A DNA stretch of 63,929 bases, the filler included, from an uncultured Methanosarcinales archaeon (lineage in GTDB: Archaea > Nanobdellota > Nanobdellia > Woesearchaeales > CAZKBD01): the NCBI GenBank assembly GCA_964550945.1. It is 5 parts of 5 records of this genome, joined end to end, with 100 filler letters (N's around TTAATTAATTAA, not from the genome) between each part and the next. Parts side by side here need not be neighbours in the genome. Positions count along the whole stretch, not along the records: positions 1 to 14,985 come from CAZKBD010000042.1; positions 15,086 to 29,993 come from CAZKBD010000043.1; positions 30,094 to 44,933 come from CAZKBD010000044.1; positions 45,034 to 59,745 come from CAZKBD010000045.1; 1 more part is not named here. One strand, given 5' to 3'. A model generated the notes under the pieces. It was given only the letters and a program-made list of their open reading frames with translations, searched no databases and was not told the origin of the DNA. The position numbers were made by a program, and so were the translations under genes. This document shows, piece after piece, positions 6,436 through 56,401 of the stretch. How positions within the stretch are numbered: position 1 is the stretch's first letter; each line of letters opens with the position of its first letter.

Positions 6436-6583
6436 ATGTCAGAAACTTTTTACTAGTCTAGGACCGGTGGCTTAAAGCCAATCCATTTTGGGATTGTAAA
6501 AAGTTTCTGAGCATGCTCAAAAACCACGACATATATAAATGGATTATACTTGCCACTAATATCTGATCAGTGGTTTTTGACAT
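6436..6583. repeat. Double-hairpin repeat, TGTCA...TGAGCATGCTCA...TGACA family, copy 1
   Basis: 15-bp arm 6439-6453/6496-6510, central palindrome 6508-6519, 11-bp arm 6517-6527/6570-6580. Confidence 0.85.
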
Positions 6584-6606
6584 AAAGCTAAAAACTATGA
6601 TATAAA

Positions 6607-7014
6607 ATGGCATACCAATGCAACAATTGCGGACCAGGATGTGGAAGTTCTAATTACAGCACTCATGACTATGAAGGCCATGGCGCTGATCTCAGCAGAT
6701 TTGGCCCTGATTCAAAGGTAAACCAATATGATGATATCAATAAATACGAGAACAGCCCTTCACAAGATTATCATACAGTTGATAAGGATGAAGCAAAGAA
6801 AGAGGACGAAGAAAAGCAGCATACAATAGAAGATGATATTAAAAAAGGAGAGCAAAAAGAAGAAAAAGGGGATGAATTTAAAGCAATTCATGAAAAATTA
6901 CCCAAAGAGTTATTAATGCAGAATAAAAATATAGAGATAAGGAAGAAGAAAGTTGATTCGATCGAAGAGGCCATCAACAAAGCGATAAAATGCCAGAAAG
7001 AGGTAATGAATTAA
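6607..7014 (+). CDS. Hypothetical acidic protein with N-terminal Cys cluster
   Basis: 135-aa ORF, CNNCGPGCG; operon-like with next ORF. Confidence 0.7.
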   Translation: MAYQCNNCGPGCGSSNYSTHDYEGHGADLSRFGPDSKVNQYDDINKYENSPSQDYHTVDKDEAKKEDEEKQHTIEDDIKKGEQKEEKGDEFKAIHEKLPKELLMQNKNIEIRKKKVDSIEEAINKAIKCQKEVMN

Positions 7015-7015
7015 G

Positions 7016-7477
7016 ATGACATACCATCACCCAAGCTACCAAGCAAGCCACAAAAATGACAGCCCAAGCTATGCATTCTCTACAGCTGGAGATGCGGCAG
7101 CTACTGCGGATTATATGGTCAAAGCAGACCTTCCAGGTTACACTGCCAGATTTTACAGCCCAACTGAGCATGAGCAGTTCACAGATATAAAATATGACAA
7201 GATATTGGTCAATTATGATAAAGGTTTTCAGGCAATAAGAGAATCTGTGCAAGGATTTCCTTTAGAAGCTTATATACCTAGGTCATTGATGTTTGAGAGC
7301 GGTGGCGGCTCGCCATTTGTCGTTCCAAAAAAGAGCGCTACAGAAAAAGTAGCCAGGGAGATTGAAGAAGCTCAAAGAGAGGTTAAGGGAAAAGCCATAA
7401 TAATTGATACTATAATTGATGAGCTTATTATTGCAAGAAGAAGGATAAGAAAGAGGCAGATAATTGCAAAAAAATAA
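7016..7477 (+). CDS. Hypothetical protein
   Basis: 153-aa ORF 1 bp after previous stop. Confidence 0.7.
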   Translation: MTYHHPSYQASHKNDSPSYAFSTAGDAAATADYMVKADLPGYTARFYSPTEHEQFTDIKYDKILVNYDKGFQAIRESVQGFPLEAYIPRSLMFESGGGSPFVVPKKSATEKVAREIEEAQREVKGKAIIIDTIIDELIIARRRIRKRQIIAKK

Positions 7478-8189
7478 GTTATTAAAAAGAGGCATAAGGT
7501 ATTGTATATATATTCTGGTCTTATTTCTAATCCTCAATATATCACTCCATCTATATCTAATCAGTTTTAGGCTTATTGTTTTTGATGAAAAATTCTATAA
7601 ATCTGAATTTAAAAAATATAATGTATACGAAAGATTAGCCGGCCAGGATATTGATAAAATAAATTCAGATATTTTAGGTTATTTCAGGCATGAGGAAAGG
7701 GCTGTACCTATCGGCAATGATTTCTTTAATGAAAAAGAAAAAGCTCATCTGATAGACGTGAAATTATTGGTCAGGCTGGTGTTATTTCTTCTTTATAGCG
7801 GATTTCTAGCCATTGCGTTAAAGTTCATATTGTTATGGGTTTTAGTCAACTACCAAAAAGAGGACATTTGGAATTATAGTTATTTTATGTTAACTGCAGG
7901 TGGTATCTTAACAATCATACCTGCACTGTTTATTTGGGCTGTAATGAAGCTGAATTTTGATTCCTTTTTCACATTTTTTCATAAGATTGCCTTTGACAAT
8001 AATCTTTGGCTGATGAATCCAGCTACAGACAAAATAATCCTGATGTATCCTCAGGGCTTGTTTTATGACATTGCGATAAAGATTGCAATATTCACGCTAA
8101 TCCAAGCAATTGCTCTGATAGTTATTGGCATATCCTGCTATAAAATTAGGCAAAGATTTAAAAATAAAGAAACTATCTCTAGAAGATAA
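7464..8189 (+). CDS. DUF1461/TIGR01906 integral membrane protein
   Basis: EKAHLIDVK, FFTFFHKIAFDNNLW, LMYPQGLF motifs. Confidence 0.85.
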   Translation: MQKNKLLKRGIRYCIYILVLFLILNISLHLYLISFRLIVFDEKFYKSEFKKYNVYERLAGQDIDKINSDILGYFRHEERAVPIGNDFFNEKEKAHLIDVKLLVRLVLFLLYSGFLAIALKFILLWVLVNYQKEDIWNYSYFMLTAGGILTIIPALFIWAVMKLNFDSFFTFFHKIAFDNNLWLMNPATDKIILMYPQGLFYDIAIKIAIFTLIQAIALIVIGISCYKIRQRFKNKETISRR

Positions 8190-8190
8190 T

Positions 8191-8946
8191 ATGAGAAAGA
8201 CTATTATTGCAGCAAATTGGAAGATGAACAAGACTATTCAGGAGTCTATTTCTTTTGTCAAAACCCTGAAAAAATTGATTAAGAGTGATGTTGAGATTGT
8301 TATCTGCCCTATGTTCACTGCTTTGGAAGCTGTCTCTAAAGAATTAAAAGGCACAAAGATAAAGTTAGGAGCCCAGAACTGCTATTTTGAGGAGAAAGGC
8401 GCTTTCACAGGAGAGGTGTCACCTGTGATATTGAAAGACATTGGATGCGAATATGTGATTTTAGGCCATTCTGAGAGAAGAAAATATTTTAAAGAGACTG
8501 ATGATCTTATTAATAAAAAAATAAAGAAAGCTCTTTCTTGCGGATTGAAATCAATAGTTTGCGTTGGAGAGCTTCTTGAAGAAAGAGAAAATGGCATGAC
8601 CAATAAGGTTATTGAAAAACAGATTAAAGAATGCCTTAATGGGCTTACAGATAAGGATATGGCTGGTGTTGTTATTGCCTATGAGCCTGTCTGGGCTATT
8701 GGCACTGGAAAAAACGCAACGCCAATCCAGGCTGAAGAGTCTCATCTGTTCATGAGGGAGCTAATCGCTAAGATGTTTAATAAAGATATTGCAAAAAAAT
8801 TGAGGATACAGTATGGTGGCTCAGTCACAACAGAGAATATTAAAGACTTATTGCTGCAGGAAGATGTAGATGGCGCATTAGTTGGCGGAGCTTCATTAGA
8901 TTCAGATAATTTCTCAAAGATTGTTAATGGTTATGGCAGCAATTAG
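8191..8946 (+). CDS. tpiA: Triosephosphate isomerase, bacterial-type
   Basis: AANWKMN, GHSERR, AYEPVWAIGTG, YGGSV, LVGGASL; start moved to ATG 8191. Confidence 0.96.
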   Translation: MRKTIIAANWKMNKTIQESISFVKTLKKLIKSDVEIVICPMFTALEAVSKELKGTKIKLGAQNCYFEEKGAFTGEVSPVILKDIGCEYVILGHSERRKYFKETDDLINKKIKKALSCGLKSIVCVGELLEERENGMTNKVIEKQIKECLNGLTDKDMAGVVIAYEPVWAIGTGKNATPIQAEESHLFMRELIAKMFNKDIAKKLRIQYGGSVTTENIKDLLLQEDVDGALVGGASLDSDNFSKIVNGYGSN

Positions 8947-9535
8947 CGCATATGACAAATTTGCAAAACAGTACACTCAATATAGCTATTCTAGATTGCC
9001 TCAGTTCGAGCTTGATAGCTTTATTTCTATTATCTCTAAGAAAGCGCTGATTTTGGATGTTGCCTGCGGCCCTGGAAGGGACAGCGAATATTTTACCAAT
9101 GAGGGTTTTAAAGTGATTGGAATCGATCTTTCAAAAAAACTGATTGCAGAAGCTAAAAAAAGAGTAAAATCAAAAAAAGCCAAGTTCAAGGTGATGGATC
9201 TGGAGAAGATTAAGCTAAAAAAGAACAGCTTTGACGGGATATGGTGCTATAATTCCTCGGTGCATATAGATAGAAAGAACATCGCAAAAGTTCTTAAGAG
9301 ATTTTTTGATTTATTAAAGAAAGATGGCGTTTTATTTATTGATATTCTTGAGGGCAAAGAAGATAAAGTGGTCAAAAGCATTGAAGTAGGGAATATGCCA
9401 AGAAAATTCTCGTTTTTTGGGCAGGTTGAGACAGAAACAATGATGAAAGATATTGGATTTTATATCACAAGCATAACTCCAGTCAGGGTTGATAACTTTA
9501 CATGGATAAATATTTTTGCAAAAAAGCTAAGTTAA
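8933..9535 (+). CDS. Class I SAM-dependent methyltransferase
   Basis: ILDVACGPGRD, GIDLS, FDGIW motifs. Confidence 0.9.
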   Translation: MAAISAYDKFAKQYTQYSYSRLPQFELDSFISIISKKALILDVACGPGRDSEYFTNEGFKVIGIDLSKKLIAEAKKRVKSKKAKFKVMDLEKIKLKKNSFDGIWCYNSSVHIDRKNIAKVLKRFFDLLKKDGVLFIDILEGKEDKVVKSIEVGNMPRKFSFFGQVETETMMKDIGFYITSITPVRVDNFTWINIFAKKLS

Positions 9536-10120
9536 TTGATCCACTATATTGCCTAATCTCTGGTCTTGAGCATATTGCGCATAATAGCTTGCTTTGTAGT
9601 TTTGTATCAGCCTCTGTATATTGGCTACAGCCTGCACAGCATTATCAATGAATTGCAGCTTAATCTCTTTTTGCTCCATTCCGGATAATTCCAGAGCAAT
9701 ATTGCCCGTATTTGGAAAAGCTTTTTCGAAAGAGACTTTAACAATGTTGGAATAGGGTATCATGTCTTCTTTAACCTGGATCATCAAAAAGCTTCTGTAC
9801 AAAGCAAGCCGGTTGCTGTAAAAGATGTATCTCACTTTTCCAAGCGCAATATAATTAAACAACATAAGAAATATGCCCATTCCAAACAAAGCTATTGTAA
9901 CCCACATTATTATTTGTGTTTGGCTTGGTGGTGAAAACTGGATCCCTATTCCGCTAAATCCTTCCTGAATACCCTTATACACTTCTTTGATATCAATCAT
10001 GTAATTGAGAAATGCCACAGCAGTAATAATAACACCGACTGCAAAACCTATCTTTAATATATTAAGCAAGAATATCTTCTTTATATTTGGCCTAAGTTCT
10101 CCTAAAGCTTGCTCTTCCAT
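9527..10120 (-). CDS. Membrane protein with probable bacterial PH-like domain
   Basis: Two TM helices followed by beta-rich domain (IPYSNIVKVSF). Confidence 0.6.
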   Translation of the reverse strand: MEEQALGELRPNIKKIFLLNILKIGFAVGVIITAVAFLNYMIDIKEVYKGIQEGFSGIGIQFSPPSQTQIIMWVTIALFGMGIFLMLFNYIALGKVRYIFYSNRLALYRSFLMIQVKEDMIPYSNIVKVSFEKAFPNTGNIALELSGMEQKEIKLQFIDNAVQAVANIQRLIQNYKASYYAQYAQDQRLGNIVDQLT

Positions 10121-10217
10121 ATGCTCTATTTTAGAGAGATAGTATTAATATTTTTCTATCTGCAAAACAAAAATTATTTATATCCATCAATCTATACAGC
10201 TTATTTGGGGTGATCGA

Positions 10218-10727
10218 ATGAAGCCAAATATTTTAATAAGTTATGATCCTTCTCACAGCGGAACTGCCAAAGACAATATTGTGAACCTATTCAAAGATAT
10301 AAAACATGATGCAAAGCAGATAAAAAAAGAGGTTGACGGCTTGTTTTCTGCAAGTGTAAAAGATGCAAGAAAGGCTGTAAAGGATTTAACTGTATTATGC
10401 AAAAAAGATGCTGCAAGATTTGAAAAAACTTTCCATTATATACCTATAGATAAATGGTGCAAAGCCACAATCAAAGACATGCAGAAGGTAGTTAAAATAC
10501 TTGCAAAAGACATCAAGGACAAAGAGAAATGGAAGATGGAGTTAGGCAAGAGAAAAAGAGAAGGCCATGAGATGGAGTTGATATTAAAACTTACTGAATT
10601 AGTTGAGAAGCCAAAGGTTGATCTTGAAAATCCTGACAAAATCATCAGAGTGGAGATTATAGGGAATAAAGCTGGAATGTCATTATTGAAAAAAGGAGAA
10701 TTGCTGAAAGTGCCAAAAGGTGCATAA
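10218..10727 (+). CDS. THUMP domain protein
   Basis: KVDLENPDKIIRVEIIG motif; GGGGTGA SD upstream. Confidence 0.85.
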   Translation: MKPNILISYDPSHSGTAKDNIVNLFKDIKHDAKQIKKEVDGLFSASVKDARKAVKDLTVLCKKDAARFEKTFHYIPIDKWCKATIKDMQKVVKILAKDIKDKEKWKMELGKRKREGHEMELILKLTELVEKPKVDLENPDKIIRVEIIGNKAGMSLLKKGELLKVPKGA

Positions 10728-10729
10728 AA

Positions 10730-10894
10730 ATGTACAACCAATGCGAATCTTGCCGCAAGATGATTGAGAGCGCAGATGACTGCAGGTTAACCAGCCATGA
10801 CGGAATTAAAGTGCATACCTACTGCAGAAGCTGTTTTGACAGGATAACAAAGGAAAAGACAGGCAAAGAGATGAATAGGATAGTTATCCAATAA
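10730..10894 (+). CDS. Small zinc-finger protein (54 aa, not in ORF track)
   Basis: MYNQCESC...YCRSCF, two CxxC; starts 2 bp after THUMP stop. Confidence 0.65.
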   Translation: MYNQCESCRKMIESADDCRLTSHDGIKVHTYCRSCFDRITKEKTGKEMNRIVIQ

Positions 10895-11019
10895 GCATGA
10901 GATTCTAGAAAGGGATTAGATGAGGTTAGTTAGATTATTTCTGGTTCATATGGTCGTTTAGTTGTAATTGGTTGTCTAATTTAATATTTGCGAAAGACTG
11001 AGTCAGGTTCTGCATATAA

Positions 11020-11250
11020 TTAAAGATAATGTTTCTGGAAAAGAAAAAATATCAGCATGAATATTGCGGTTAGTGCAATGGTAAAATAAAGCATTCTTTT
11101 ATCATTGGCAAAACCAAATGGTATAAAACCTATAAATCCGCCGACAGCTATTTTGGAATCTTGTTTAGTAGTTTGCGATAATGCTCCAATAAATATCAGA
11201 ATCATGCCGATAAATATCACAAAAACACCTATCGGAATTAGCTCTTTCAT
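11020..11250 (-). CDS. DUF131/TIGR00304-like small membrane protein
   Basis: GGFIGFIPFGF motif between TM helices. Confidence 0.75.
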   Translation of the reverse strand: MKELIPIGVFVIFIGMILIFIGALSQTTKQDSKIAVGGFIGFIPFGFANDKRMLYFTIALTAIFMLIFFLFQKHYL

Positions 11251-11528
11251 ATGGTACAGAGATGCTAGCTCGTCTATAAAAATTTGGGTGTTACAAAATA
11301 TATATTACAAAATACTATAAATCCGAAAGCTTTAAATACTACTAGTATACATATTAGTATACCAATTTCCAAAAACCTTGTGTTTTTGGATCTCATAGAA
11401 AGAGGCAGTAATTTTGGCGTAACACTCGAAAAGAAAGAGGCCAAACAAAACAACCTTTTGATCCTCACTAATATTTCGAGTATAAAACTGCCTCTTCATC
11501 CTATTAAACGGGCTAGGGATTTCCTAAA

Positions 11529-11783
11529 ATGAACCAAGAATTGATAGTAAACAAAGAATTCGTTGAATTCAAGAACAATGTGGACGCATGGATCAAACAA
11601 ATTAGAGCTGAGTTTAATGAGTTACAGGATGTTTCTGATATTGTAGAAGAGAATGTTGGCAATGTTCAGCACAACTACGAGTTAATTTACGAGCTTAAGG
11701 ATGAAGTGGAAAAAATGAAGGAAGAGCTCAAGGCCCTAAAGTTGATCCAATTAGTAACCCTAAAAAAACAGATACAGCACTAA
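11529..11783 (+). CDS. Hypothetical coiled-coil protein
   Basis: 84-aa ORF with heptad pattern. Confidence 0.65.
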   Translation: MNQELIVNKEFVEFKNNVDAWIKQIRAEFNELQDVSDIVEENVGNVQHNYELIYELKDEVEKMKEELKALKLIQLVTLKKQIQH

Positions 11784-12544
11784 GCTATCTCATTTCCAAG
11801 CTCCTTTTTAAGGTCTTCGCTTGTTTTTAACATTATCTCTATCTCTCCAAAATGCTGTTCCTGGAATAGCTCTATTTTTTGCTGGTTTGTTAGATGCAGC
11901 AATGGTATGAATGTGTATACCTTATCTTCCTTGGAATCTGATGGGATCAGCTCGGAGAATGTTAGGACACTTTTTTTATCTTTATAAAAAAAAGATTTGA
12001 TTCTTCCATAAACATCCATGATTATTGCGGTTATATCCTTTCTTTTTGCAGGCATGGTGATATTTGTTGGAGGTATGCTCTGCAAAACTCTTCTCCTTTT
12101 TGTTTCCAAAGCCCTCTCAAGGGCATTCACAAGATCATATACCGAGACCTTTCTTTTTCTTGGCTGAGGGGTTCTTGGGATCAAGCTTGCTCTTTCCTGA
12201 GGCGTCATTTTGACATCTGGTGCCTCCTCAAAATCACTCTCTTCTTCCTCGCCTGAGAACAACCTATCAAGCTGGTCAAGATCTTCTCCCATCAACCTGG
12301 TTGATTTTATCCTTAGCAATATGGCTGCTGCCAATAATACTTTTCCAGAACCCCTGAAGTCCATCTCTTTCAGCTTTTTGACCATTTCCAGGTATTTTTG
12401 AGTTAATAAAGAGATGTCAATATCCCAAGGATCCATTTGCTCAGTCCTTACTAATTCAAACAGAATGCTCTGCCAGGTAATCTCATCTTTATCGAATAGA
12501 AGCTGGAATACGTGCTCATGGTTCTTAATAACGGGCAGTTGCAT
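11780..12544 (-). CDS. scpA: Segregation and condensation protein A (kleisin)
   Basis: MDPWDIDI, AAILLRIKS, FIPLLHL...QEQHFGEI. Confidence 0.92.
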   Translation of the reverse strand: MQLPVIKNHEHVFQLLFDKDEITWQSILFELVRTEQMDPWDIDISLLTQKYLEMVKKLKEMDFRGSGKVLLAAAILLRIKSTRLMGEDLDQLDRLFSGEEEESDFEEAPDVKMTPQERASLIPRTPQPRKRKVSVYDLVNALERALETKRRRVLQSIPPTNITMPAKRKDITAIIMDVYGRIKSFFYKDKKSVLTFSELIPSDSKEDKVYTFIPLLHLTNQQKIELFQEQHFGEIEIMLKTSEDLKKELGNEIA

Positions 12545-12660
12545 TATAACTGATTATAACCTAGTTCATATATAAATTTAGTGATTAAATACAGATTAAA
12601 TAGAATATAAAAATTGGAAAGCAAAACATTTTTAAATGAAAATATAATTCTGAGAATCAA

Positions 12661-12745
12661 GGGCTCGTGGTCTAGCGGCTATGACAGCACCCTTACAAGT
12701 TACTATGAAAGGTGTTAGTCCCCGGTTCGAATCCGGGCGGGCCCA
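12661..12745 (+). tRNA. tRNA-Val(UAC) with 12-nt intron at 37/38 (12698-12709)
   Basis: Acceptor GGGCTCG/CGGGCCC, anticodon stem GCACC/GGTGT, T arm CCCGG-TTCGAAT-CCGGG. Confidence 0.92.
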
Positions 12746-12756
12746 CTTTATCAAAT

Positions 12757-12891
12757 GCGCCAGTGATCTAATGGCTACGACTGGCTAGGCTTAAATTTAA
12801 CCAGTTGCCATGAATGATAGGACCTTGCCAAGGTTCTCATCCGAGAATTTTAGCTTTGCTAAGATCGGAAATTCGAATCTCGGCTGGCGCA
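12757..12891 (+). tRNA. tRNA-Gly(GCC) with D-loop intron (12777-12813) and 53/54 intron (12846-12871)
   Basis: Acceptor GCGCCAG/CTGGCGC; BHB helices ATGG/CCAT and TCCG/CGGA with 3-nt bulges restore a standard cloverleaf. Confidence 0.9.
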
Positions 12892-13803
12892 TTTACTTTC
12901 TTTCACTGATTTGTAGAAGAAATACCCCACTATACAGCAAGTCACTACTGGGGTGACCCAGGAGGGAATATGCAGCTTAAAACTTTCCAGAATCATTATT
13001 GTGCCTAGTGCAAAAATAGAATACATTGCTCCATTTTTAAGATATTTGTACTTTTTTACATTCTCAATATTCTTGATTGTTATTTGCCTTACAACAATCG
13101 CACCTATCCCGTTTCCTATCAATATAAGGGGGATAGATAAAGTAAACGCAAATGCCCCTAAAACACCGTCAACAGAGAAAGTAGCATCTATCACCTCAAG
13201 ATAAAGGATTTTGCTTATATCAGAGATGTTTGTCTTCCCTTCAAGCATCTGTTTTTCCATCTTAGCTGCATTTTCCTTAAATCCGTGTGTTATGAAGAAG
13301 GCTGTTGAGCCTATAACTGCTCCAAAAGCCATAAAAGGGTTTTGCTTAATTGATAACCAAACAAGCAAAGCCAATATCACTGATACTATTGTGAAGAACC
13401 ATACACCATGTTTTTCAATCAATTCCTCTCCTGCGATGCCGTAGTGTTTAGGCTCCAAAAAAAGCCAATGAAAGAAAAGAAAAACAAGAAAGGTGCCACC
13501 TCCAATAAATAAAACCGGTGAAGATTCCTCAACTGCCTTTAAGATGATAGGATCTGAGCTAAATGCTAACCTCAAAACACCATTTATACCAATCTGAGGG
13601 TTGCTCCCCCAAAGAATTAAAAAAGGCAGCAAGCCCCTAACCAAAAAAACTGCGATAATCAGCCCCCATATCAAAAACCATCTTCTGGCTTTTTTTGAGA
13701 CTGTTGCCAGAACCTCTCCATTTATGATCGCATTGTCTATGCTGCTAATCACTTCAAAAAGGCTTAAGCCAATAATTATCAAGATTATTTCAAATATGCC
13801 CAT
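12859..13803 (-). CDS. DUF475 (TerC-like) membrane protein
   Basis: SSIDNAIIN, YLEVIDATFSVDGVLGAFA, YLKNGAMYSI. Confidence 0.9.
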   Translation of the reverse strand: MGIFEIILIIIGLSLFEVISSIDNAIINGEVLATVSKKARRWFLIWGLIIAVFLVRGLLPFLILWGSNPQIGINGVLRLAFSSDPIILKAVEESSPVLFIGGGTFLVFLFFHWLFLEPKHYGIAGEELIEKHGVWFFTIVSVILALLVWLSIKQNPFMAFGAVIGSTAFFITHGFKENAAKMEKQMLEGKTNISDISKILYLEVIDATFSVDGVLGAFAFTLSIPLILIGNGIGAIVVRQITIKNIENVKKYKYLKNGAMYSIFALGTIMILESFKLHIPSWVTPVVTCCIVGYFFYKSVKESKCASRDSNFRS

Positions 13804-13920
13804 GGTGTTCCTAAAACTGGTAAGGGTATATAAATTTATTGTGAGTTAAAATCTCATTTTCCACCGGTGTATCTCACTGGTGAATTGCTGCCAGTTATGT
13901 AATCAGGGGAAAATGAGAAC

Positions 13921-14039: not shown

Positions 14040-14236
14040 GGGCTCGTAGCTCAGCCTGGTTAGAGCGCTGGTCTTATATGACCACGCTTTATGCAACTAA
14101 GACAGCCAGCGGTCGAGGGTTCAAAACTTAGGGACTGCACCCTAAAGGTACCGGCAGTCAAGTGGGACATTCCTCACTTTGTTCGGAAGTCCCACGAACT
14201 TGATGCAATCCCTTTGCGAAAGTCCCTTCGAGCCCA
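14040..14236 (+). tRNA. tRNA-Ile(UAU) with 37/38 intron (14079-14103) and 97-nt 59/60 intron (14126-14222)
   Basis: Acceptor GGGCTCG/CGAGCCC, stem CTGGT/GCCAG, CTTA/TAAG BHB; splicing restores GAGGG-TTCAAAT-CCCTT. Confidence 0.88.
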
Positions 14237-14535: not shown

Positions 14536-14732
14536 GCCCCCATGGTGTAGTCCGGTCACAGAAATGCTGGAGAATCATTTCGGCTTTTCGAGCCGAAGAC
14601 GTGGGTTCAAAACGAACCTTTTTGCTCTGCAAAAATGTTCGATCGAAATGGGGAATCTCACTTCGTTCGATTCGTTACTTTTAGAAAAAGTAACCAAAAT
14701 GAGCAGGTTTGGTGAAAGTCCCGCTGGGGGCA
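14536..14732 (+). tRNA. tRNA-Glu(UUC) with 15-nt D-loop intron (14558-14572) and 107-nt 59/60 intron (14612-14718)
   Basis: Acceptor GCCCCCA/TGGGGGC, TCGGC-TT-TTC-GA-GCCGA; BHB helices CCGG/CTGG and perfect TTCA/TGAA. Confidence 0.9.
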
Positions 14733-14985: not shown

Positions 14986-15085
14986 NNNNNNNNNNNNNNN
15001 NNNNNNNNNNNNNNNNNNNNNNNNNNNNNTTAATTAATTAANNNNNNNNNNNNNNNNNNNNNNNNNNNNNNNNNNNNNNNNNNNN
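14986..15085. other. Artificial contig linker
   Basis: N-run + TTAATTAATTAA + N-run. Confidence 0.97.
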
Positions 15086-29993: not shown

Positions 29994-30093
29994 NNNNNNN
30001 NNNNNNNNNNNNNNNNNNNNNNNNNNNNNNNNNNNNNTTAATTAATTAANNNNNNNNNNNNNNNNNNNNNNNNNNNNNNNNNNNNNNNNNNNN
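29994..30093. other. Artificial contig linker
   Basis: N-run + TTAATTAATTAA + N-run. Confidence 0.97.
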
Positions 30094-42362: not shown

Positions 42363-42488
42363 TGTCAAGAACTGCGGACTGAAGTCCACAGCATGCAGTT
42401 CTTGAGCATGCTCAGAAATATACCCTAATCACCAAGCGGATTGGAATTTGTCCATCAGTCAAAATAAGCTAAGGGTATATTTCTGACA
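42363..42488. repeat. TGTCA...TGAGCATGCTCA...TGACA repeat, copy 2
   Basis: 11-bp arm 42365-42375/42395-42405, palindrome 42403-42414, 15-bp arm 42412-42426/42472-42486. Confidence 0.85.
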
Positions 42489-42524
42489 CATAAATATTTA
42501 TATTAGTAACATTCTTATTTTCTA

Positions 42525-44933: not shown

Positions 44934-45033
44934 NNNNNNNNNNNNNNNNNNNNNNNNNNNNNNNNNNNNNNNNNNNNTTAATTAATTAANNNNNNNNNNN
45001 NNNNNNNNNNNNNNNNNNNNNNNNNNNNNNNNN
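44934..45033. other. Artificial contig linker
   Basis: N-run + TTAATTAATTAA + N-run. Confidence 0.97.
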
Positions 45034-47764: not shown

Positions 47765-47767
47765 TTT

Positions 47768-48864: not shown

Positions 48865-48878
48865 TTTCAATCTGTATA

Positions 48879-49027: not shown

Positions 49028-49097
49028 AAGTTTACATTAGGTTATAAACCTCGATGTTCAGCAAATTATAAATACTAATCTGCAACAGATATAAACA

Positions 49098-49520
49098 ATG
49101 GCAGACAAATACTGGTTTGACACATGCATCTGGAGAGATTTCTATGAGAATAGGTTCAGTAAAGCAGGAAATCCATTGGGTGAATACGCCACAAACGCAT
49201 TTATGAAAATATTTAGGAAAGGTTGTAAAGTTTTATTTTCCGAATCCCTCATAAGAGAACTACACAAAGATTATAGCACGGACGAAATCAATGATATGCT
49301 TAACCTCCTTTTTATGAGCAATATTCTTTTTAAAGTTGATATAACCCGAGAAGACTATCTTGAAGCAAAAGATTTATCAGAAAAGAGAAACCTTCCCTTT
49401 GTTGATTGCCTAAATGCTGTACAATCTAGGAATCATAAATCAATAATGGTCTCTCAAGATGAGCACTTTACAAAAAATCTTTCAGACATTGTCAAAGTAA
49501 TAAAACCTCAGGATCTCTAG
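49098..49520 (+). CDS. PIN-domain (VapC-like) protein
   Basis: FDTCIW, E, LPFVDCL, SQDEHF acidic tetrad. Confidence 0.88.
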   Translation: MADKYWFDTCIWRDFYENRFSKAGNPLGEYATNAFMKIFRKGCKVLFSESLIRELHKDYSTDEINDMLNLLFMSNILFKVDITREDYLEAKDLSEKRNLPFVDCLNAVQSRNHKSIMVSQDEHFTKNLSDIVKVIKPQDL

Positions 49521-49783
49521 CTGAATCTTTTGCCTAACTCTGCCATTAATTCCCTGCTAACTGCTTGTTTTGTCTTTAGATTATCCTTATATGTTGTTTT
49601 CTTCCTGGCTTTTCCCCGATACTTCAAGAACTCTTTCATCAATTCTTCCTTGCTTAGCTCAGCAAGCTTGTCTCTTACAGCTTCCCTGATAAACTCAGTC
49701 CTGGAATTAAAGTTATGCTCAGTTATAGTCTCGTCTATCTTTTTCAATACATCTTCCTGGAACTTAACAGTTACGGCTTCCAT
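49517..49783 (-). CDS. CopG/RHH antitoxin-like regulator
   Basis: VTVKF...IDE...FNSRTEFIREAVR. Confidence 0.88.
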   Translation of the reverse strand: MEAVTVKFQEDVLKKIDETITEHNFNSRTEFIREAVRDKLAELSKEELMKEFLKYRGKARKKTTYKDNLKTKQAVSRELMAELGKRFS

Positions 49784-49962
49784 TGTATGCCGGAGTAATA
49801 CATAGTATTATTTAAAACTTTTGAAAATTCAGCTATTCTTCACCCCCAACCCCACAGAATAGCCAACAGCCTCTGATTCCTAACGCTCAAAGTGCGCCTC
49901 TTTGCCTTCTAAATTCTAGTCCCGTCTTCGGCTTGTTTTGCCACAATTCAGACTTCCGTTCG

Positions 49963-49989
49963 AAATCCAACAGAACTTTAGAATGCAAA
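49963..49989 (+). repeat. 27-bp direct repeat, right copy
   Basis: Identical to 49001-49027. Confidence 0.85.
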
Positions 49990-50061
49990 CAATTTACCAA
50001 TTATCTTATCATGAGCCTTTTCTGCAGTATATCTAACGGGTTTGCCTTTTTTGGATAGAGT

Positions 50062-50205
50062 TTATATCAACCCAATAGAGCTGGTTGGGAGAGACTGATC
50101 TTCTTCAACAATAAGGATCTTTTTTGGAATCTTAAAAAGACATTCGTCACAATACAACCTATCATTAGCTATTTCAGACCTACATTTTAAACAGTTGTTT
50201 GTCAT
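50062..50205 (-). CDS. Small zinc-finger protein (47 aa, not in ORF track)
   Basis: MTNNCLKCRSEIANDRLYCDEC; AGGGGGGA SD. Confidence 0.5.
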   Translation of the reverse strand: MTNNCLKCRSEIANDRLYCDECLFKIPKKILIVEEDQSLPTSSIGLI

Positions 50206-50760
50206 TATAATCCCCCCTGGGTTTAGTTTTTTAGCAATATTATATCTGGTTATAATTGATCGACCAGTTTATTTCATAATTACTAAACCCAATTCTCTTT
50301 TTGCTCTAGCCTGCTTTTGTTTACTATGCTACTATTTTCAAATAAACTGTCAAATTCGCTTATTGTGTTTTTGGTTACAAAGTGATCAGCATTACTAAAC
50401 AATACTTTTTGTTCCATTTTCTACCTCGCAATATCTGTTCTACGCTTTTTATCAACTAATTCTATATACTCGCCATCCTCGTTTTCAATAATCGCCTTTC
50501 CCTGGAATTCAAACATTTTTTACATCCTCCGATACAATTGATAAAATCCCTATTTATCTTCAAAATCGTACATAACGTCTTCAGAGCCATATCTATGAAA
50601 GATCCAATATGGATTTTCGTCAAATGGTTTTCTCTCAAAATTTGTCATTTTAATCATCTTTGATTGTTAAATGCAAGATTAGGCAGATTCTTTACAATCC
50701 CTTTCTACCCTAAGTTGCTTGTTTTTGCCTATCTATCTGCATTCGCCTCATTTTTTCTAA

Positions 50761-50877
50761 CTACTCACTTGGTTTTTCACAGTAAGGACAAATTAATGCA
50801 AGCCCGACAAGTTTTACCTTGCCTTTTATTTGCCTCTTGCAATGCTTACAAATAGCTGTCCTGGTTGTTTTAACCAT
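50761..50877 (-). CDS. Small zinc-ribbon protein (38 aa, not in ORF track)
   Basis: CKHC...CPYC. Confidence 0.5.
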   Translation of the reverse strand: MVKTTRTAICKHCKRQIKGKVKLVGLALICPYCEKPSE

Positions 50878-50949
50878 ATCTACATATTAAGCAGGATAAC
50901 TATAACTAGTTAGGGTAGTAGAAATTATCTAAAATGCCTTAGAAAGTTG

Positions 50950-51504
50950 TTATTTACCCAAGAAAAATTGATTTGTACTGGCTAATTTTTTATCGAGGAT
51001 ATAGTTCAATAAACCAACAGAACTTGTTTTAATCATCCTATCCACTGAAAATGGATATACATGCACTATCTCAATCTCTTTAGAGTATTTTGCCTGTAAT
51101 TTCATAAGATACCTGTCCTTTTGGTCTATATTCTTAAATCCCATAACAAGGAGATGAGAGATATTTGATTCAGGAATACGATAACAGGTTATCACTTCTG
51201 GGATTTTTTGTATATTCTGGGCGATTTGCTCTTCAGAATATTTCCCCCAGACATATTGAGTGAATTTTATACCAAGAACAACCAGTGCTTCAATTCCTAT
51301 TTTTTTAAAATCAATTATCGGCATATACCCCCTTATGATCCCCACACGCTCTAGTTTATGCCTGATCTTAAAGATCGCTTGTTGAGAAAGCCCCATTTTT
51401 TTAGCTATTTCTAAATCCGGGATTTTAGCCTGTTCAATAATCTTTTTCAGAACTTTTTGTTCGTTTTTTGTTAATTTTGGCAGGTTAATATCTGGCTTTT
51501 CCAT
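50950..51504 (-). CDS. Lrp/AsnC family transcriptional regulator
   Basis: HTH EIAKKMGLSQQAI...LERVGIIRGYMPIIDFKKIG. Confidence 0.88.
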   Translation of the reverse strand: MEKPDINLPKLTKNEQKVLKKIIEQAKIPDLEIAKKMGLSQQAIFKIRHKLERVGIIRGYMPIIDFKKIGIEALVVLGIKFTQYVWGKYSEEQIAQNIQKIPEVITCYRIPESNISHLLVMGFKNIDQKDRYLMKLQAKYSKEIEIVHVYPFSVDRMIKTSSVGLLNYILDKKLASTNQFFLGK

Positions 51505-51662
51505 ATTAATGACGAAGACGATATCCTATATAAAGGTTCTTATCATCTCATTACCCAATTTTATTAGAATTATTTCCTCAGCCATTCAATTTATTCTGTA
51601 GACAACCCTAATCAGTCTGAAATTGTATTGGTCCTGTTTTTATATTATATAACCTAAAACGG

Positions 51663-52289
51663 TTATTTATCCTTTGTGGTTATATCATCTAACTTAGCTA
51701 AGATAGCCTTCCGAGCAAGCCTCTCGGGAAGCAGCACAGGGATGAACTTATATTCCAATTTCCAGAAATCAAAAAAATCACGAGCTTGTTCTATTTTGAT
51801 TAGGGGAACAAAAATGGTGTTGTCAGAGATTTTTATTCCTTCAAAGGTGCCTATTGCGCCGTTAGATCCGCCTCTGCCATTAAGCGCATAGTAAAATCTA
51901 GTCTTAGTGGTGTTATCCAACTGGCTTGTTTCATAGATAAAGGCTCCAAAAGAAGCAAAACCATAATCAGAAGCTGTATAGTGAGACTTAACCAAGCTAA
52001 ATCCCTCAAACAAATAGCCTTCTCGTCCATCAAAATGTCTATCTAAGCAAGTTTTTAATGTTTTGGATATTACTGATATATTTGCGGGCATTTTTTTTCT
52101 ATAATCATATTCAAGATTTTTATCGATATTTTCTTTAAAAATCATTAAAATATCAATATCAGAAGGTTTTTCTTTGCCCCTCATAAATGAGCCAAAAACA
52201 ACTATGTCTTCTATCTTACCTATATTTCTTTTATAGAAACTTTTAGTTATTTTCTTTAATTGAGTAATTTTTGAGTTCATTTTCAACAA
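51663..52289 (-). CDS. Nucleotidyltransferase (MNT) with C-terminal extension
   Basis: VFGSFMRGK..PSDIDI; RFYYALNGRG tail. Confidence 0.82.
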   Translation of the reverse strand: MLKMNSKITQLKKITKSFYKRNIGKIEDIVVFGSFMRGKEKPSDIDILMIFKENIDKNLEYDYRKKMPANISVISKTLKTCLDRHFDGREGYLFEGFSLVKSHYTASDYGFASFGAFIYETSQLDNTTKTRFYYALNGRGGSNGAIGTFEGIKISDNTIFVPLIKIEQARDFFDFWKLEYKFIPVLLPERLARKAILAKLDDITTKDK

Positions 52290-52578
52290 TCCTTTTTATC
52301 CTATCACATTCTTCTCTGGTCAATAACTTAGAATAAGTATCCCTGTAGGTATTAAACTCTTTATCCAGCTCTCTGTAAGTAGAAGGAAAGCCTTTTTTAA
52401 GGAACTGAAATCTTTCGGTGTGGTCTTTTGGGCTTTGACCAATCTTGTTTAACAGTATAAAATCTTGCAAGGCAAACCATGTCTTGAAATACAGAATTAC
52501 AGCTGAGGTGTAATCTTTTAAATCATATAAAGTATCGGCTGATATTTTGAATTTGATAATCTGGTCTTTAGTCAGCAT
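52243..52578 (-). CDS. HEPN-like partner protein
   Basis: AVILYFK, PKDHTERF, YRDTY; overlaps MNT gene. Confidence 0.7.
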   Translation of the reverse strand: MLTKDQIIKFKISADTLYDLKDYTSAVILYFKTWFALQDFILLNKIGQSPKDHTERFQFLKKGFPSTYRELDKEFNTYRDTYSKLLTREECDRIKRIVENELKNYSIKENN

Positions 52579-52634
52579 GTTATACTATAAAACAGTTATG
52601 TTATATTTAAACTTTTGGGTTAGAGTGTATAACA

Positions 52635-53840
52635 TCATTTCTTTAACCACTCAACCTCTTCTTTTGACAATTCAAGCTCTTCTGTTATCTGGTTAGCCAT
52701 TTGCCTGTTTTTTTGGAAAATAATTTGAAAATAAGGCATGTCTTTTATGATTTCTTTTATTGAGGAATGTGTTTTTTCTGCTATTTTTGCTGCAATTGCT
52801 TTTTTCTTTGCTAATTTCTGGTTGGCCCACCATATCTTCAATAATTTACCGGTTGGCTTATACTGCACCATGTGCTTGTATTTCTCGTCTTTTGATAAAG
52901 CAACTCCAGCAGTTATTAACTCGTTGATATAAACCAAGAAACGCCAGTGCTGCCATCTTCTTATCCTTCTGTTAAAGACGTCTGCTTTGCTTAGTTTATC
53001 ATAAGCTCGAGCCAGATCTTTTGGCTTTGTGTATTCTCTTGGTATATTCTCATCAAGCCAGAGCAATTGCTGGTCTAAGTCTTCCCTAACATTTTCAAAA
53101 GCTGTTAATGCCACTTTTGGATCCGTTGTTTTGAATATCTTAAACAGGGCATTGAGTATAGTGTCTTCCTTATTCCTTTCGTATAATTCTTCCAGGCTTT
53201 CTTTTGTTAGCTCTTTTGTCTCAAAAGAAAGGGTTTGCAAGTCGTTTATTGCTGCCCTGCAATCACCGCCTGATCTTCTTGCTAATGACTTTAATATTTC
53301 ATCCTGGAATCTTATCTTTTCTTTGATGCAGATATTTTTTAATACATCATAGACTGCTGAATAATCCAACGGCTTAAATTCTATGAGCTGCGTCTTGGAC
53401 CTTAAAGAAGCGAATTTATAGTCCCAGGGATTCTGCATAGTAAGAATTATCGGAAAAGAGGTTTCCTGGATTATCTTAAGTATAGCCTGCAAACCCCCTC
53501 TGTCATTTGTTCCTGACAAGCCGTCAACTTCATCTACCAAAATGAGTTTTCCTCTTGAAAATAAGCTTTGCTGATAGACTGCTGAGCCTAATTTTTCATT
53601 TATCTGCTCTTTATTGCGGACATCGCTAGCATTTATTTCATAAATTTCATAATTAAATTCATGAGCCAAGGCATATATGCTCATGGTTTTTCCAGAGCCG
53701 CTAGGGCCGTAGACCAGGCACGATTTCTTGCTTTGCTGCTTAAACCTCTCAATAAAATGCTTTAATAAGTTTATAGCTGCATCCTGGCCTTTTATCTCTG
53801 CAAGTGTTTTTGGCTGGTATTTTTTTATGAATGGGAGCAT
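52635..53840 (-). CDS. rfcL: Replication factor C large subunit
   Basis: KKYQPK, GPSGSGKT, EINASD.R, DEVDG, GDCRAAINDLQ, WLDENIP. Confidence 0.94.
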   Translation of the reverse strand: MLPFIKKYQPKTLAEIKGQDAAINLLKHFIERFKQQSKKSCLVYGPSGSGKTMSIYALAHEFNYEIYEINASDVRNKEQINEKLGSAVYQQSLFSRGKLILVDEVDGLSGTNDRGGLQAILKIIQETSFPIILTMQNPWDYKFASLRSKTQLIEFKPLDYSAVYDVLKNICIKEKIRFQDEILKSLARRSGGDCRAAINDLQTLSFETKELTKESLEELYERNKEDTILNALFKIFKTTDPKVALTAFENVREDLDQQLLWLDENIPREYTKPKDLARAYDKLSKADVFNRRIRRWQHWRFLVYINELITAGVALSKDEKYKHMVQYKPTGKLLKIWWANQKLAKKKAIAAKIAEKTHSSIKEIIKDMPYFQIIFQKNRQMANQITEELELSKEEVEWLKK

Positions 53841-53866
53841 AATTAAAGGGAAGAATAAGAGGTTTA

Positions 53867-55045
53867 TTAAGATTTTGGTGCAGCAATTAATTTTACCAAT
53901 TGTTGAATGTATTGCGCAGGATCTTGACCATTGCAGAAGGCCTTCTGAACAGCACCTGGAGTTGGTTCTGAAATCATATGGTGTAGAAAAATTAATTTAT
54001 CAGGTTTGTTTAATGAGTTATACAAACTCAATAAACCGTGCAGGGCTGGTGCAATTTGTGCAGGATTATGAGTTTCTGCTAAAAGTGCACTTGTCCTGTA
54101 AGCTGCATCAGCACGATTGGCCTCATGCAGTTGTACAAAACTATCCCCTAATAAGCAATACCAGCATGGATTTTGAGGATCAGTAGTTGTTTTTGCAATT
54201 AAGGATTTTACTCTGTTGATTTCTCTTGTTGCCTTGGCTTGTTCCTGCCATTTATGATATTGTGTTGCTTGAGTATGCAACCAAGTTAATACATTATCTT
54301 TTTCGGCGCTTTTCTGTAAATGACCCAAATATTCAACAATCTTGCCAGTTGCTGGAATAAACCGGCTTCTGGCGTAACTTTGTTTTGGAGTAGTGTCAAG
54401 ATATTCTAATCTTGCGGCTTTAGGTGCAAAATAGCCTCTGGCAGCAGTGTTTCCACTTTGTGCAATTGCTCTGTATAACCCATGGAGTGATTGTAATACT
54501 TTATGAGTTAGTTCTAAATCAAGAGTCTGCCAAGCAAAGGCAGCACAAAATTCATATGTACCAACAGCTTCAAAAGGTGTTTTTAATTTTGCGCAGCTGC
54601 TAGCTAAAGTCTCCAAGGATTTTGGCAAAGCTTTACAACCAAATGCCTGCATTGAAAGCTGTGCAGCCATTTTGTGATAATTTTGTGTGTTGCCTTCAGA
54701 ATCCAGGAAAGCTGCTAGTTCCATATATGGCACAACATCTTTTGGTTGTGCGGCAATTGCTGCTCGATACTTCTCAATAACCTGATCAATAGTAGATGCT
54801 CCCACTGGAAGGTGTGTTGATTGCGCTGCTAATCTTGCTTGCTCTAATGGCGGGTCTTTGGCAAATAAATCTAATACAGATGAAAAACCTGATTCTGGTG
54901 CAAATAGGTCTGTTTCTAGTTTAAGATTTGGATCAGGTGCAAATAAGGCCTCGACAATTTTGGGACGTCGTATTGCACCTGGTGGTGCAGTTGTCCTTCT
55001 ATGATCTTCTTCAGTTTTTGCTGAGTTTTGTCTCCACCATAACAT
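53867..55045 (-). CDS. Hypothetical alpha-helical (TPR-like) protein
   Basis: Internal repeated helical units; LFAP repeats at N-terminus; AGGTGG SD. Confidence 0.65.
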   Translation of the reverse strand: MLWWRQNSAKTEEDHRRTTAPPGAIRRPKIVEALFAPDPNLKLETDLFAPESGFSSVLDLFAKDPPLEQARLAAQSTHLPVGASTIDQVIEKYRAAIAAQPKDVVPYMELAAFLDSEGNTQNYHKMAAQLSMQAFGCKALPKSLETLASSCAKLKTPFEAVGTYEFCAAFAWQTLDLELTHKVLQSLHGLYRAIAQSGNTAARGYFAPKAARLEYLDTTPKQSYARSRFIPATGKIVEYLGHLQKSAEKDNVLTWLHTQATQYHKWQEQAKATREINRVKSLIAKTTTDPQNPCWYCLLGDSFVQLHEANRADAAYRTSALLAETHNPAQIAPALHGLLSLYNSLNKPDKLIFLHHMISEPTPGAVQKAFCNGQDPAQYIQQLVKLIAAPKS

Positions 55046-55177
55046 TAGTTACCACCTTAACGTAGAAGAATGGTATTTGGCTTTTAAAGATTTCGTGAAT
55101 TCTGGTTTTGAGGCTCACCTCAAGTTGAAACACCCTGCTAAATGTGAGGAATCGCTTCAAAAAGGATAATGTTTAAA

Positions 55178-55957
55178 CTAATCTGAAACATAGCTTCCGG
55201 TAATATTTGCTAATCCAATGAGGTTTCTAGCGTATAACACTAAAAAATTTCCATGGCCTGCAAATACCATTTCAACTTTTGCGCCTTTATTTCCACTATA
55301 GTTAGCTAATAATCCTTCTAATTTCTGGAACCCTTCAAGCCTGATCCCATAAGCATTTTGGTGCGCTTTTAATCCATCCATCACTATTGGTTTAACTGGA
55401 TCGAAATAATCCTGAAATATTTGCGAAAAGACCTCAGAGGGAATAAGCCCGCGTTCTTTTGATTCTGAAAACCATCCTGGCCTATAAGCATAAATGTGAG
55501 TGTACTCGCATAATTTTTCTGCGAGCAGGGCATCATTGGGATTAGTTAATCCAAAAAAAGGAGGGTCATTTTCACCTGCTTCACAATACCCAAAGATTTC
55601 GAATAATTCTCTTTCTAATTCTCGCGTATATCCATCCCATTTTTGCCTGTCTTCTCGCGTTAAGACATTAGAATAAACATTATTCCCAATCTCGTTGATC
55701 ATTGATCCAAAATCTAAAGCGCAGTTTCTTGATGTTGAGGAATTATCCTGAAGATATACTACATGTGAAGTTCGATCAAATTCACCCCCAGGATGATTGT
55801 CATCAAGACCAAATAATCTTGGCAGCATTGGCTCATAATCTGAGCATACTACAAAAGCCAGCCCATCATAAAATAAAGGAGGTATGTTTGCTTTGTCAAG
55901 AACACTTGCCAGATCATCCCTTGACTTTATGTGAATGTTTTTTTGCAGTCCACGCAC
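55178..55957 (-). CDS. Hypothetical protein
   Basis: 259-aa ORF; NEIGN..Y and downstream SEVF resemble a degenerate zincin site. Confidence 0.55.
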   Translation of the reverse strand: MRGLQKNIHIKSRDDLASVLDKANIPPLFYDGLAFVVCSDYEPMLPRLFGLDDNHPGGEFDRTSHVVYLQDNSSTSRNCALDFGSMINEIGNNVYSNVLTREDRQKWDGYTRELERELFEIFGYCEAGENDPPFFGLTNPNDALLAEKLCEYTHIYAYRPGWFSESKERGLIPSEVFSQIFQDYFDPVKPIVMDGLKAHQNAYGIRLEGFQKLEGLLANYSGNKGAKVEMVFAGHGNFLVLYARNLIGLANITGSYVSD

Positions 55958-56184
55958 AAGGATGGCTGATGATTCTGTAGAAGTTGAGTAATATGTCCTT
56001 ATAGTCTGGCCTAATGCGATTGATGCTTATGTTAAAAAAACTGCCGAAGCAGTTAGATATAATAACCTCCTTGGAGTTGTTTTTAATTGCTTTTTAATTC
56101 TTGACAATAACTGCAGCATTTTAATAGCTAAATAATGATTGTGTTTTTAAAAAGATATCTGAAATAAGTTAGCTTTTTTCTTTT

Positions 56185-56401
56185 TGTCAAAAACTACCTA
56201 TCACAGATGAGTGGCATGAAGCATTAGTGTCTGTTAATTATTGATGAACCTGTGGTTTTTGAGTATGAACTGAGAAATTTGCTTTGCAAATTTCTGGTTT
56301 GTTAGAAATGCCTTGCATTTCAAACACTCAGAAACTTTCGATATTACTATTGAAGATTTGATTTCGGCCATCAATTCTAAACTGGCAGGAAGTTTCTGAC
56401 A
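56185..56401. repeat. TGTCA...TGACA repeat, copy 3, centre split by nested double hairpin
   Basis: TCAAAAACTAC/GTGGTTTTTGA, TGAGTAT...ACTCA, TCAGAAACTT/AAGTTTCTGA. Confidence 0.8.

What the first reader, a model, noticed from the sequence alone, without database searches (positions are those of the whole stretch)
6436..56401. Double-hairpin repeat family with fixed junctions and free loops (three copies)
Seen at 6436-6583, 42363-42488 and 56185-56401: TGTCA-[stem 1]-TGAGCATGCTCA-[stem 2]-TGACA. Stems (10-15 bp) start TCAGAAA/TCAAAAA/TCAAGAA and covary between copies, while loops are unrelated in sequence and length. All are intergenic, just upstream of a gene or its TATA box. Inference: conservation of only the junction suggests a cruciform/four-way substrate for a transposase or recombinase that captures flanking DNA, or a structured RNA. 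BLAST would largely miss it.
Basis: partly seen in the sequence, partly recalled or inferred. Interest (0 to 1): 0.8.

Follow-up and report, generated by a model that had tools for sequence, protein, structure and literature searches.

The report
Dumbbell-shaped IS200 mini-transposons of Woesearchaeota
The three repeats are copies of a small gene-less jumping-DNA family in tiny groundwater archaea that carries the end signals of IS200-type transposons and is predicted to fold its single strand into a dumbbell whose two ends meet, so it likely moves without a scar using a borrowed transposase.

Summary
The repeat is real, and the family is much larger than three: 46 arm pairs in this genome, and 40 of 301 genomes of the order carry the core.

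1. The terminal dinucleotides co-vary with the centre hexamer, not with each other. In 85 of 91 non-consensus centre halves the end is complementary. One strand is therefore predicted to fold into a nicked dumbbell with abutting ends.
2. The loops are not captured flanks. They hold the subterminal hairpins and guide tetranucleotides of a Woesearchaeota IS200-like (Y1 TnpA) clade, plus nested insertions. The left guide predicts the insertion site by the IS608 rule (42 of 45 at one position, 26 expected). There is a one-sided target motif, no target duplication, and one exact empty site in a congener.

Best reading: non-autonomous IS200/IS605 derivatives (PATE-like), likely moved in trans as single-stranded circles.

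Still open: no matching TnpA was found in this genome, the cut position is uncertain by one base, and 50-nt copies without the IS hairpins also move.

The scan reported this family (e1-3787860) and similar ones before, as REP-like with no known enzyme.

The parts
6437..6582 (+). Copy 1, long dumbbell element (146 nt); inferred active strand +
6431..6436 (+). Target motif 5' of copy 1 (family consensus TTRANA; host DNA)
6439..6510 (+). Copy 1 left arm; left guide at 6446-6449 and IS200-type left hairpin at 6450-6470
   Evidence: (HMM hit 6448-6472)
6511..6516 (+). Copy 1 centre GCATGC: G and C bulged; CA pairs with the left-end TG and TG pairs with the right-end CA (predicted; covariation shown family-wide)
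6517..6580 (+). Copy 1 right arm; decayed right guide 6549-6552, IS200-type right hairpin 6553-6573, then the cleavage-site-like TGAC at 6578-6581
   Evidence: (HMM hit 6550-6575)
42363..42488 (-). Copy 2 (126 nt), active strand -; left arm 42412-42486 (guide 42476-42479), centre 42406-42411, right arm 42365-42405 with guide CATG 42392-42395 and hairpin 42372-42391 resembling the right end of a second IS200 clade (L160)
42489..42494 (-). Target motif of copy 2; fits the guide rule at 2 of 3 guide positions, plus the constant A
56185..56401 (-). Copy 3 (217 nt), active strand -; left arm 56328-56399, right arm 56187-56262 (guide 56215-56218, hairpin 56194-56214), centre split into 56263-56267 and 56327
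56268..56326 (+). 59-nt nested double hairpin inserted without duplication in the centre of copy 3; related insert at the same position in G000 C24 and C81, first arm only in C68 and C49
56415..56435 (.). Lone 21-nt hairpin resembling one arm of a short family member, 13 nt from copy 3

Best explanation
These are gene-less derivatives of IS200/IS605-type insertion sequences that keep the left and right end hairpins and guide tetranucleotides, and they likely move as single-stranded circles cut out and re-inserted by a Y1 (HUH) TnpA supplied in trans. Shown: dispersed copies, IS200-type hairpins in both arms, left guide predicting the target, target motif on one side only, no duplication, scarless empty sites, and ends that co-vary with the centre. 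Inferred: the centre is an inverted copy of the right-end/left-end junction plus two bulged bases, so the excised strand would fold into a closed rod with its ends pre-aligned. TnpA would bind the inner hairpins after the outer stems open. The rod would let copies sit in hairpin loops, introns and ORFs with little disturbance. The enzyme and the role of the rod are untested.
For: End-centre covariation. On a set chosen only for centre GCACAC, the right end is TG in 47 of 55 and CA in 4. With arms-only selection (236 doublets), 85 of 91 non-consensus centre halves are closed and 4 keep the consensus end; 378 of 381 consensus halves are closed. Without the GCACAC set it is 36 of 40, with six compensatory types.

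Polarity. A at -3 in 147 of 171 and A at -1 in 148 of 171, on one side only.

IS link. An HMM built from 12 ends of tnpA-bearing elements of other genomes puts 28 of 38 hits in G000 inside the family's ~10 kb footprint (0.5% of the genome), including both arms of copy 1.

Guide rule. It fits 7 of 9 left and 8 of 9 right IS ends. Four G265 copies end exactly at the predicted site. In 45 independent long sites, guide-target pairs are 42, 30 and 30 against 26, 16 and 21.6 in shuffles, with the constant A in 44 of 45. Within G000 alone it is 18 of 28 against 9.4, maximum 17 in 5000 shuffles.

No duplication and scarless sites. No target duplication at 2-8 nt in 109 sites. One exact 147-bp filled/empty pair between G075 and G163. 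Nested copies restore the host sequence. Rule source: PMC3201880 and PMC5934647.
Against: No TnpA of the matching clade in G000 (92% complete, 177 contigs); its two Y1 genes and one remnant belong to another clade, whose ends do not resemble the family. The clade is in only 6 of 40 element-positive genomes. Any Y1_Tnp is in 12 of 21 positive and 12 of 29 negative genomes. No tnpA flanked by the family's own ends was found. Informative nested empty sites put the cut one base 3' of the IS608 position; for long copies the register is ambiguous because the base is the same on both sides in 102 of 109. The outer stems bury the guides and the cleavage site. Copies of about 50 nt lack the IS hairpins yet are mobile, and show no guide-target signal. 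Orientation clustering in G163 does not match GC skew or the cdc6 position.
Confidence: 0.7

Rival explanations
1. The dumbbell itself (outer arms plus centre) is the mobile unit and is handled by a different enzyme, such as a REP-type Y1 protein, an integron-like single-strand tyrosine recombinase reading the bulged G, or a host enzyme. The IS hairpins in long copies would be relics or passengers.
For: Short copies of 49-57 nt have only the outer arms and still insert without duplication. The bulges are conserved: G in 160 and C in 159 of 171. The cut is shifted by one base in nested copies. The matching TnpA is missing in most hosts.
Against: In long copies the inner left guide predicts the target, which a passenger would not do. 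Sister families with other outer stems carry the same IS hairpins and follow the IS608 register at the right end. G000 has only one tyrosine recombinase match, and no gene recurs beside the copies.
Confidence: 0.2
2. A functional structured RNA or an intron-like RNA element, spliced or circularised and re-inserted through reverse transcription.
For: Strong folds and G.T tolerance on one strand. One arm sits in a tRNA-Leu T-loop intron. The genome has DGR-like loci with apparent reverse transcriptase starts.
Against: Both orientations relative to flanking genes. No Rfam match. DNA-transposon guide rule. The fold has two one-base bulges on the same strand, not a bulge-helix-bulge. No whole family member forms an intron among the 9 T-loop candidates listed.
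Confidence: 0.05
3. A conventional MITE with TG...CA terminal inverted repeats moved by a DDE transposase, or a double-stranded cruciform substrate that captures flanks.
For: The consensus copy reads TGTCA...TGACA.
Against: The ends follow the centre, not each other (TG...TG in 47 of 55). No duplication. One-sided target motif. The loops belong to sequence subfamilies.
Confidence: 0.03

Closest known systems
PATEs (palindrome-associated transposable elements) of Haloquadratum walsbyi (PMC3119063; passages read)
   Same: Archaeal, transposase-free, no target duplication, near-terminal palindromes shared with IS200/IS605 elements, short target oligonucleotide, host to nested insertions.
   Different: PATEs are defined there as lacking terminal inverted repeats. 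Here each end pairs with an inverted copy of the junction in the centre, giving a dumbbell, and consensus copies look like they have inverted ends. The supplements with PATE sequences could not be read, so a hidden dumbbell in PATEs is not excluded.
IS608 / ISDra2 (IS200/IS605 family; PMC3201880, PMC5934647; passages and sections read)
   Same: Subterminal hairpins with a guide tetranucleotide at the 5' foot; crossed guide-site pairing with an unpaired A at -2; target 5' of the left end; no duplication. A purine after the tetranucleotide matches the third guide base, as for the +1 base of ISDra2.
   Different: No tnpA or tnpB. Outer stems sequester the guides and the right cleavage site. The cut appears one base further in the informative nested cases. 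Minimal copies lack the hairpins.
SMR-A small mobile repeats of Haloquadratum (PMC3119063)
   Same: Inverted ends, no duplication, mobilisation called enigmatic, insertion into the palindromes of PATEs and IS605 elements. Short GCACAC-type copies here sit in hairpins at 6 of 29 sites against 1.2 expected and are nested in long copies.
   Different: SMR-A are about 110 bp with no stated similarity to transposons.
REP/BIME/REPIN with TnpA-REP, and CGTC/TGTC-tagged REPs (PMC3733652, PMC8266576, PMC6006769; passages read)
   Same: Dispersed, mostly extragenic hairpin doublets; some copies in frame; no linked transposase (as for CGTC REPs).
   Different: No invariant unpaired GTAG/CGTC tag: the terminal dinucleotide varies with the centre. 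No REPtron-like flanked tnpA was found. Targets follow an IS-type variable guide.

Membership tests
IS200/IS605 non-autonomous derivative (PATE-like) | Subterminal hairpins related to those of tnpA-bearing IS200/IS605 elements | tested here: met
   HMM from 12 IS ends: 28 of 38 G000 hits inside the family footprint. Met for long copies only; short copies lack them.
IS200/IS605 non-autonomous derivative (PATE-like) | No target-site duplication; precise empty site | tested here: met
   109 sites; 147 vs 0 bp; nested joints
IS200/IS605 non-autonomous derivative (PATE-like) | Target tetranucleotide 5' of the left end chosen by guide pairing, A at -2 | tested here: met
IS200/IS605 non-autonomous derivative (PATE-like) | Cut immediately 3' of the guide-paired tetranucleotide | tested here: inconclusive
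   Nested short copies show a cut one base further. Long copies are ambiguous: same base on both sides in 102 of 109.
IS200/IS605 non-autonomous derivative (PATE-like) | No terminal inverted repeats (PATE definition) | tested here: inconclusive
   Consensus ends are complementary, but they co-vary with the centre and not with each other
IS200/IS605 non-autonomous derivative (PATE-like) | Cognate TnpA available in trans in the host | tested here: inconclusive
   Matching clade not found in G000; in 6 of 40 positive genomes against 10 of 261 negative; genomes are incomplete
IS200/IS605 non-autonomous derivative (PATE-like) | Single-strand excision to a circle by TnpA; lagging-strand bias | not testable with these tools
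   Needs biochemistry. Orientation clusters in G163:C7 but does not match skew or cdc6.
REP / CGTC-tagged REP | Invariant unpaired GTAG or CGTC/TGTC tag at the foot of a hairpin with an 8-9 bp stem and 4-5 nt loop | tested here: not met
   The terminal dinucleotide is paired and varies (TG, CA, CG, TA, CT, GA)
REP / REPtron | tnpA-REP gene flanked by the repeats | tested here: not met
   32 Y1 loci examined (output partly cut); none seen flanked by the family's ends
MITE (DDE) | Terminal inverted repeats that match each other, with target duplication | tested here: not met
Structured ncRNA / BHB intron | Fixed orientation to transcription, Rfam family, or bulge-helix-bulge ends | tested here: not met
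   no RNA data available
Integron attC cassette site | R boxes (RYYYAAC/GTTRRRY; recalled, not from a call), arrays beside an intI | tested here: not met
   The ends are TG/CA-type; copies are dispersed; no recurrent neighbour gene

The most novel reading that the evidence does not exclude
Woesearchaeota IS200 derivatives have evolved a self-synapsing design: an inverted copy of their own circle junction in the middle folds the strand into a nicked rod that aligns both ends, takes over the guide's job and moves the cut by one base. This lets elements shrink to about 50 nt, lose the classical transposase-binding hairpins and parasitise the hairpin loops of other IS200 elements. It would be the smallest HUH-transposition substrate and a mechanism for 'orphan' repeats such as SMR-A and CGTC-REPs.
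Probability: 0.3. Interest if true: 0.8.

Novelty: new variant of a known kind. Interest (0 to 1): 0.58.

Why it matters
It ties an abundant, unexplained hairpin repeat of DPANN archaea to a named enzyme family through a testable base-pairing rule. It also shows a fold, a nicked dumbbell with covarying closure, that my paper searches did not find described for IS200/IS605 derivatives (open-access library only). The natural guide-target series is a ready set of retargeting variants for a scarless single-strand transposase. The 50-nt copies make the long-standing question of how transposase-less palindromic repeats spread directly testable with oligonucleotides.

Tried and rejected
- Viral contigs: 0 matches for the core and none for the TnpA clade.
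- Shared neighbour gene: among 745 ORFs near 111 copies, no cluster occurred in more than 3 loci, and the top clusters were mostly housekeeping genes.
- Autonomous element with the family's ends around a gene: only chance long pairs; three loci had a Y1 ORF within 900 nt of an end-like motif, and none was a true end.
- Any-Y1 co-occurrence: 12 of 21 against 12 of 29. My note and the test input used a miscount (13/21, 11/29); neither is significant.
- Replication-strand bias: in G163:C7, 12 of 14 right ends lie on one strand before 400 kb and 8 of 9 on the other after 420 kb, but skew is monotonic and cdc6 is at 275 kb, so it is inconclusive.
- Guide-like covariation in short copies: three weak hits among about 200 comparisons, not accepted.
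- Sequencing runs: no RNA holder listed. Contigs laid on copies 1 and 3 showed no joint skipping an element (contigs show presence only).
- Empty-site search between G075 and G163: 2 distinct empty-site pairs (one exact, one blurred by an A-run) and one larger indel; the other copies had no two-sided ortholog in the stretches held.
- Representative-protein search: 231 relatives of the TnpA, no context, not used further.
- (6 genomes, right-end motif) mostly added chance hits in ORFs.
- Supplements of PMC3119063 were unreadable; they bear on the PATE and SMR-A comparison.
Full report
**Observation.** The window joins five contigs of a 1.97-Mb, 36.6% GC genome. Most named records that carry the same core are Woesearchaeota or Nanoarchaeia, so the host is likely of that group. 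Copies 1 and 2 are as described; copy 3 has the same ends and arms, but its centre is split by a 59-nt nested double hairpin. The centre 12-mer occurs twice in the window (0.23 expected) and 28 times in the genome. Arm-pair centres number 28 against 0, 0 and 0 in Markov controls. The core is in 7 of 61 and 40 of 301 genomes of the order, patchily across families. That count includes two genomes flagged unpublished (G194, G127), whose loci L157 and L158 are also among the 236 doublets below. Sizes run from about 49 to over 200 nt.

**Fold.** The general form is NN-arm-x N4 y-arm-NN. The left dinucleotide is complementary to centre positions 2-3 and the right one to positions 4-5. As a blind test I pulled 119 metagenome matches on the non-palindromic centre GCACAC. 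In the 55 distinct copies with both arms (the rest were cut by contig ends, had no arms or were duplicates), the right end is TG in 47 and CA in 4. Over all 236 doublets chosen on arms only, 85 of 91 non-consensus centre halves have the complementary end and 4 keep the consensus; without the GCACAC set it is 36 of 40, in six pair types. A single strand is therefore predicted to fold into two coaxial hairpins joined by a 4-bp helix with two bulges (G in 160 and C in 159 of 171) and a nick where the 5' and 3' ends abut. The centre is the reverse complement of the would-be circle junction plus those two bases (read from the sequence). Kin share changes, so counts overstate independent events; the six types do not.

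**Polarity and insertion.** With the G-containing arm first, G.T outnumbers A.C 20 to 0 at arm position 3. The 5' flank has the motif TTRANA (35 of 148, against 1 of 148 at the other end; A at -3 and -1 in about 86%). The element's own right end fits the same motif. There is no duplication of 2-8 nt in 109 sites. A 147-bp copy in G075 is exactly absent at the orthologous site of the congener G163. Nested copies restore the host sequence when removed. Orientation is independent of flanking genes (7 vs 6 in G000 and 7 vs 4 in G163, by hand). One copy is in frame in a secreted protein.

**What the loops are.** The loops fall into subfamilies (65-95% best match within G000) that combine in at least nine left/right pairings. 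Comparing flanks of Y1 tnpA genes with the arms pointed to one IS200-like clade (L171, L380, L388; Pfam Y1_Tnp). Its left and right subterminal hairpins match the inner hairpins of the long arms. An HMM from 12 such IS ends of other genomes gave 38 hits in G000, 28 of them inside the family's 0.5% footprint (intervals set by me), including both arms of copy 1. Most other hits are contig-end fragments or sister families with different outer stems and a similar two-arm fold. The right arm of copy 2 instead resembles the right hairpin of a second IS200 clade (L160).

**Guide rule.** In IS608 the first and second guide bases pair with positions -3 and -4 of the cleavage site, and A at -2 is unpaired (PMC3201880 section 20; PMC5934647 passages). 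The fourth-base pairing with -1 I infer from the listed sequences. In ISDra2 the base after the cut pairs with the third guide position (PMC5934647 discussion). The rule predicts 7 of 9 left and 8 of 9 right IS ends picked automatically (the three misses are mis-picked hairpins), and four G265 copies diverge exactly after the predicted site. In the long dumbbells, the four bases at the foot of the inner left hairpin predict flank positions -5 to -2. Among 45 of 109 independent sites with an objectively placed hairpin, the pairs number 42, 30 and 30 against 26, 16 and 21.6 in shuffles, and the constant A is present in 44. A fixed-position version gives 74, 54 and 56 of 103 against 43, 35 and 41. 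Within G000 it is 18 of 28 against 9.4. The neighbouring register also scores on two positions, but only this one scores on all three with the constant A. The right guide is CA-N-N in 64 of 83 copies where a hairpin was placed, matching TG of the terminal TGAC.

**Mechanism.** Shown: all of the above. Inferred: TnpA in trans excises the active strand as a circle and inserts it 3' of a guide-selected site, as for IS608. The rod fold pre-aligns or protects the ends and makes insertions structurally quiet.

**Against, and unexplained.** The matching TnpA clade is not found in G000. It is in 6 of 40 positive and 10 of 261 negative genomes (p about 0.01; kin not independent; G292, flagged unpublished, is one of the ten). 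Any-Y1 presence does not track the element (12 of 21 against 12 of 29). No tnpA lies between the family's own ends. Informative nested sites place the cut one base beyond the IS608 position; for long copies both registers fit in 102 of 109. Short copies have no inner hairpins and no accepted guide signal, yet they move, and the GCACAC type favours hairpins (6 of 29 against 1.2), among them loops of IS-type palindromes. Orientation switches near 400 kb in G163:C7 with no matching skew or cdc6 landmark.

**Comparison.** The family works like an IS200/IS605 non-autonomous element and is closest to the PATEs of Haloquadratum; the short copies parallel SMR-A (PMC3119063 passages; supplements unreadable). 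It fails the defining tests of REP/CGTC-REP (PMC3733652 passages; PMC8266576 passages; PMC6006769 passages), DDE MITEs and structured RNA. Searches (listings only, apart from the papers named) found no description of this family or fold; the library lacks most subscription papers.

**Earlier scan notes.** The scan had noted this family in this genome (e1-3787860) and similar hairpin families elsewhere as REP- or RPE-like with no enzyme. A word search for an IS200 guide link found no note. The tRNA-His intron of e1-9975234 lacks this family's arm motif; only a single arm sits in a tRNA-Leu intron.

**Verdict.** Real, mobile, a new variant of a known kind; interest 0.58.

Noticed in passing
L001 (G000:C153) and L002 (G000:C146): Both Y1 tnpA genes of G000 lie directly upstream of a DGR-like arrangement: an ORF with a variable-region-like C-terminus, a template-like repeat and the apparent start of a reverse transcriptase. 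A C-terminal remnant of the same tnpA clade is at G000:C99:3450-3548.
   Followed up: partly
G000 C148:700-840, C4:53040-53185, C58 end, C17:1125-1250: Sister family with the same IS200-type hairpins, different outer stems and a two-arm fold; its right end follows the standard IS608 register.
   Followed up: partly
G000 C80:293-455, C122:4150-4260, C56:7265-7420; G218 loci L421, L425: Sister family sharing the left arm but with a right end TTAG guided by AATC.
   Followed up: partly
G000 C6:27968-28036 and C14:4280-4358: Second closed double-hairpin family with unrelated arm motifs.
   Followed up: no
G000:C48:5133-5243: 111-bp copy inserted in frame (37 codons) after the signal peptide of a secreted protein.
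   Followed up: partly
window 14040-14236 and 14536-14732; G000 C3, C5, C6, C31, C37, C86: Many tRNA genes carry T-loop introns of 35-110 nt, several with hairpin modules; most were missed by aragorn, which found 12 tRNAs.
   Followed up: partly
G163:C7: Element orientation flips near 400 kb (12 of 14 against 8 of 9) without a matching GC-skew switch; 7 of 9 right ends lie on one strand in G009:C2.
   Followed up: partly
G000 C12:18879-18990, C122:4270-4397; loci L074, L327, L329: Tandem copies joined at the right end, which itself fits the target motif.
   Followed up: partly
window 14986-15085, 29994-30093, 44934-45033, 59746-59845: The window is a concatenation of contigs C42, C43, C44, C45 and C124 separated by N spacers, so the three copies are on different contigs.
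   Followed up: yes
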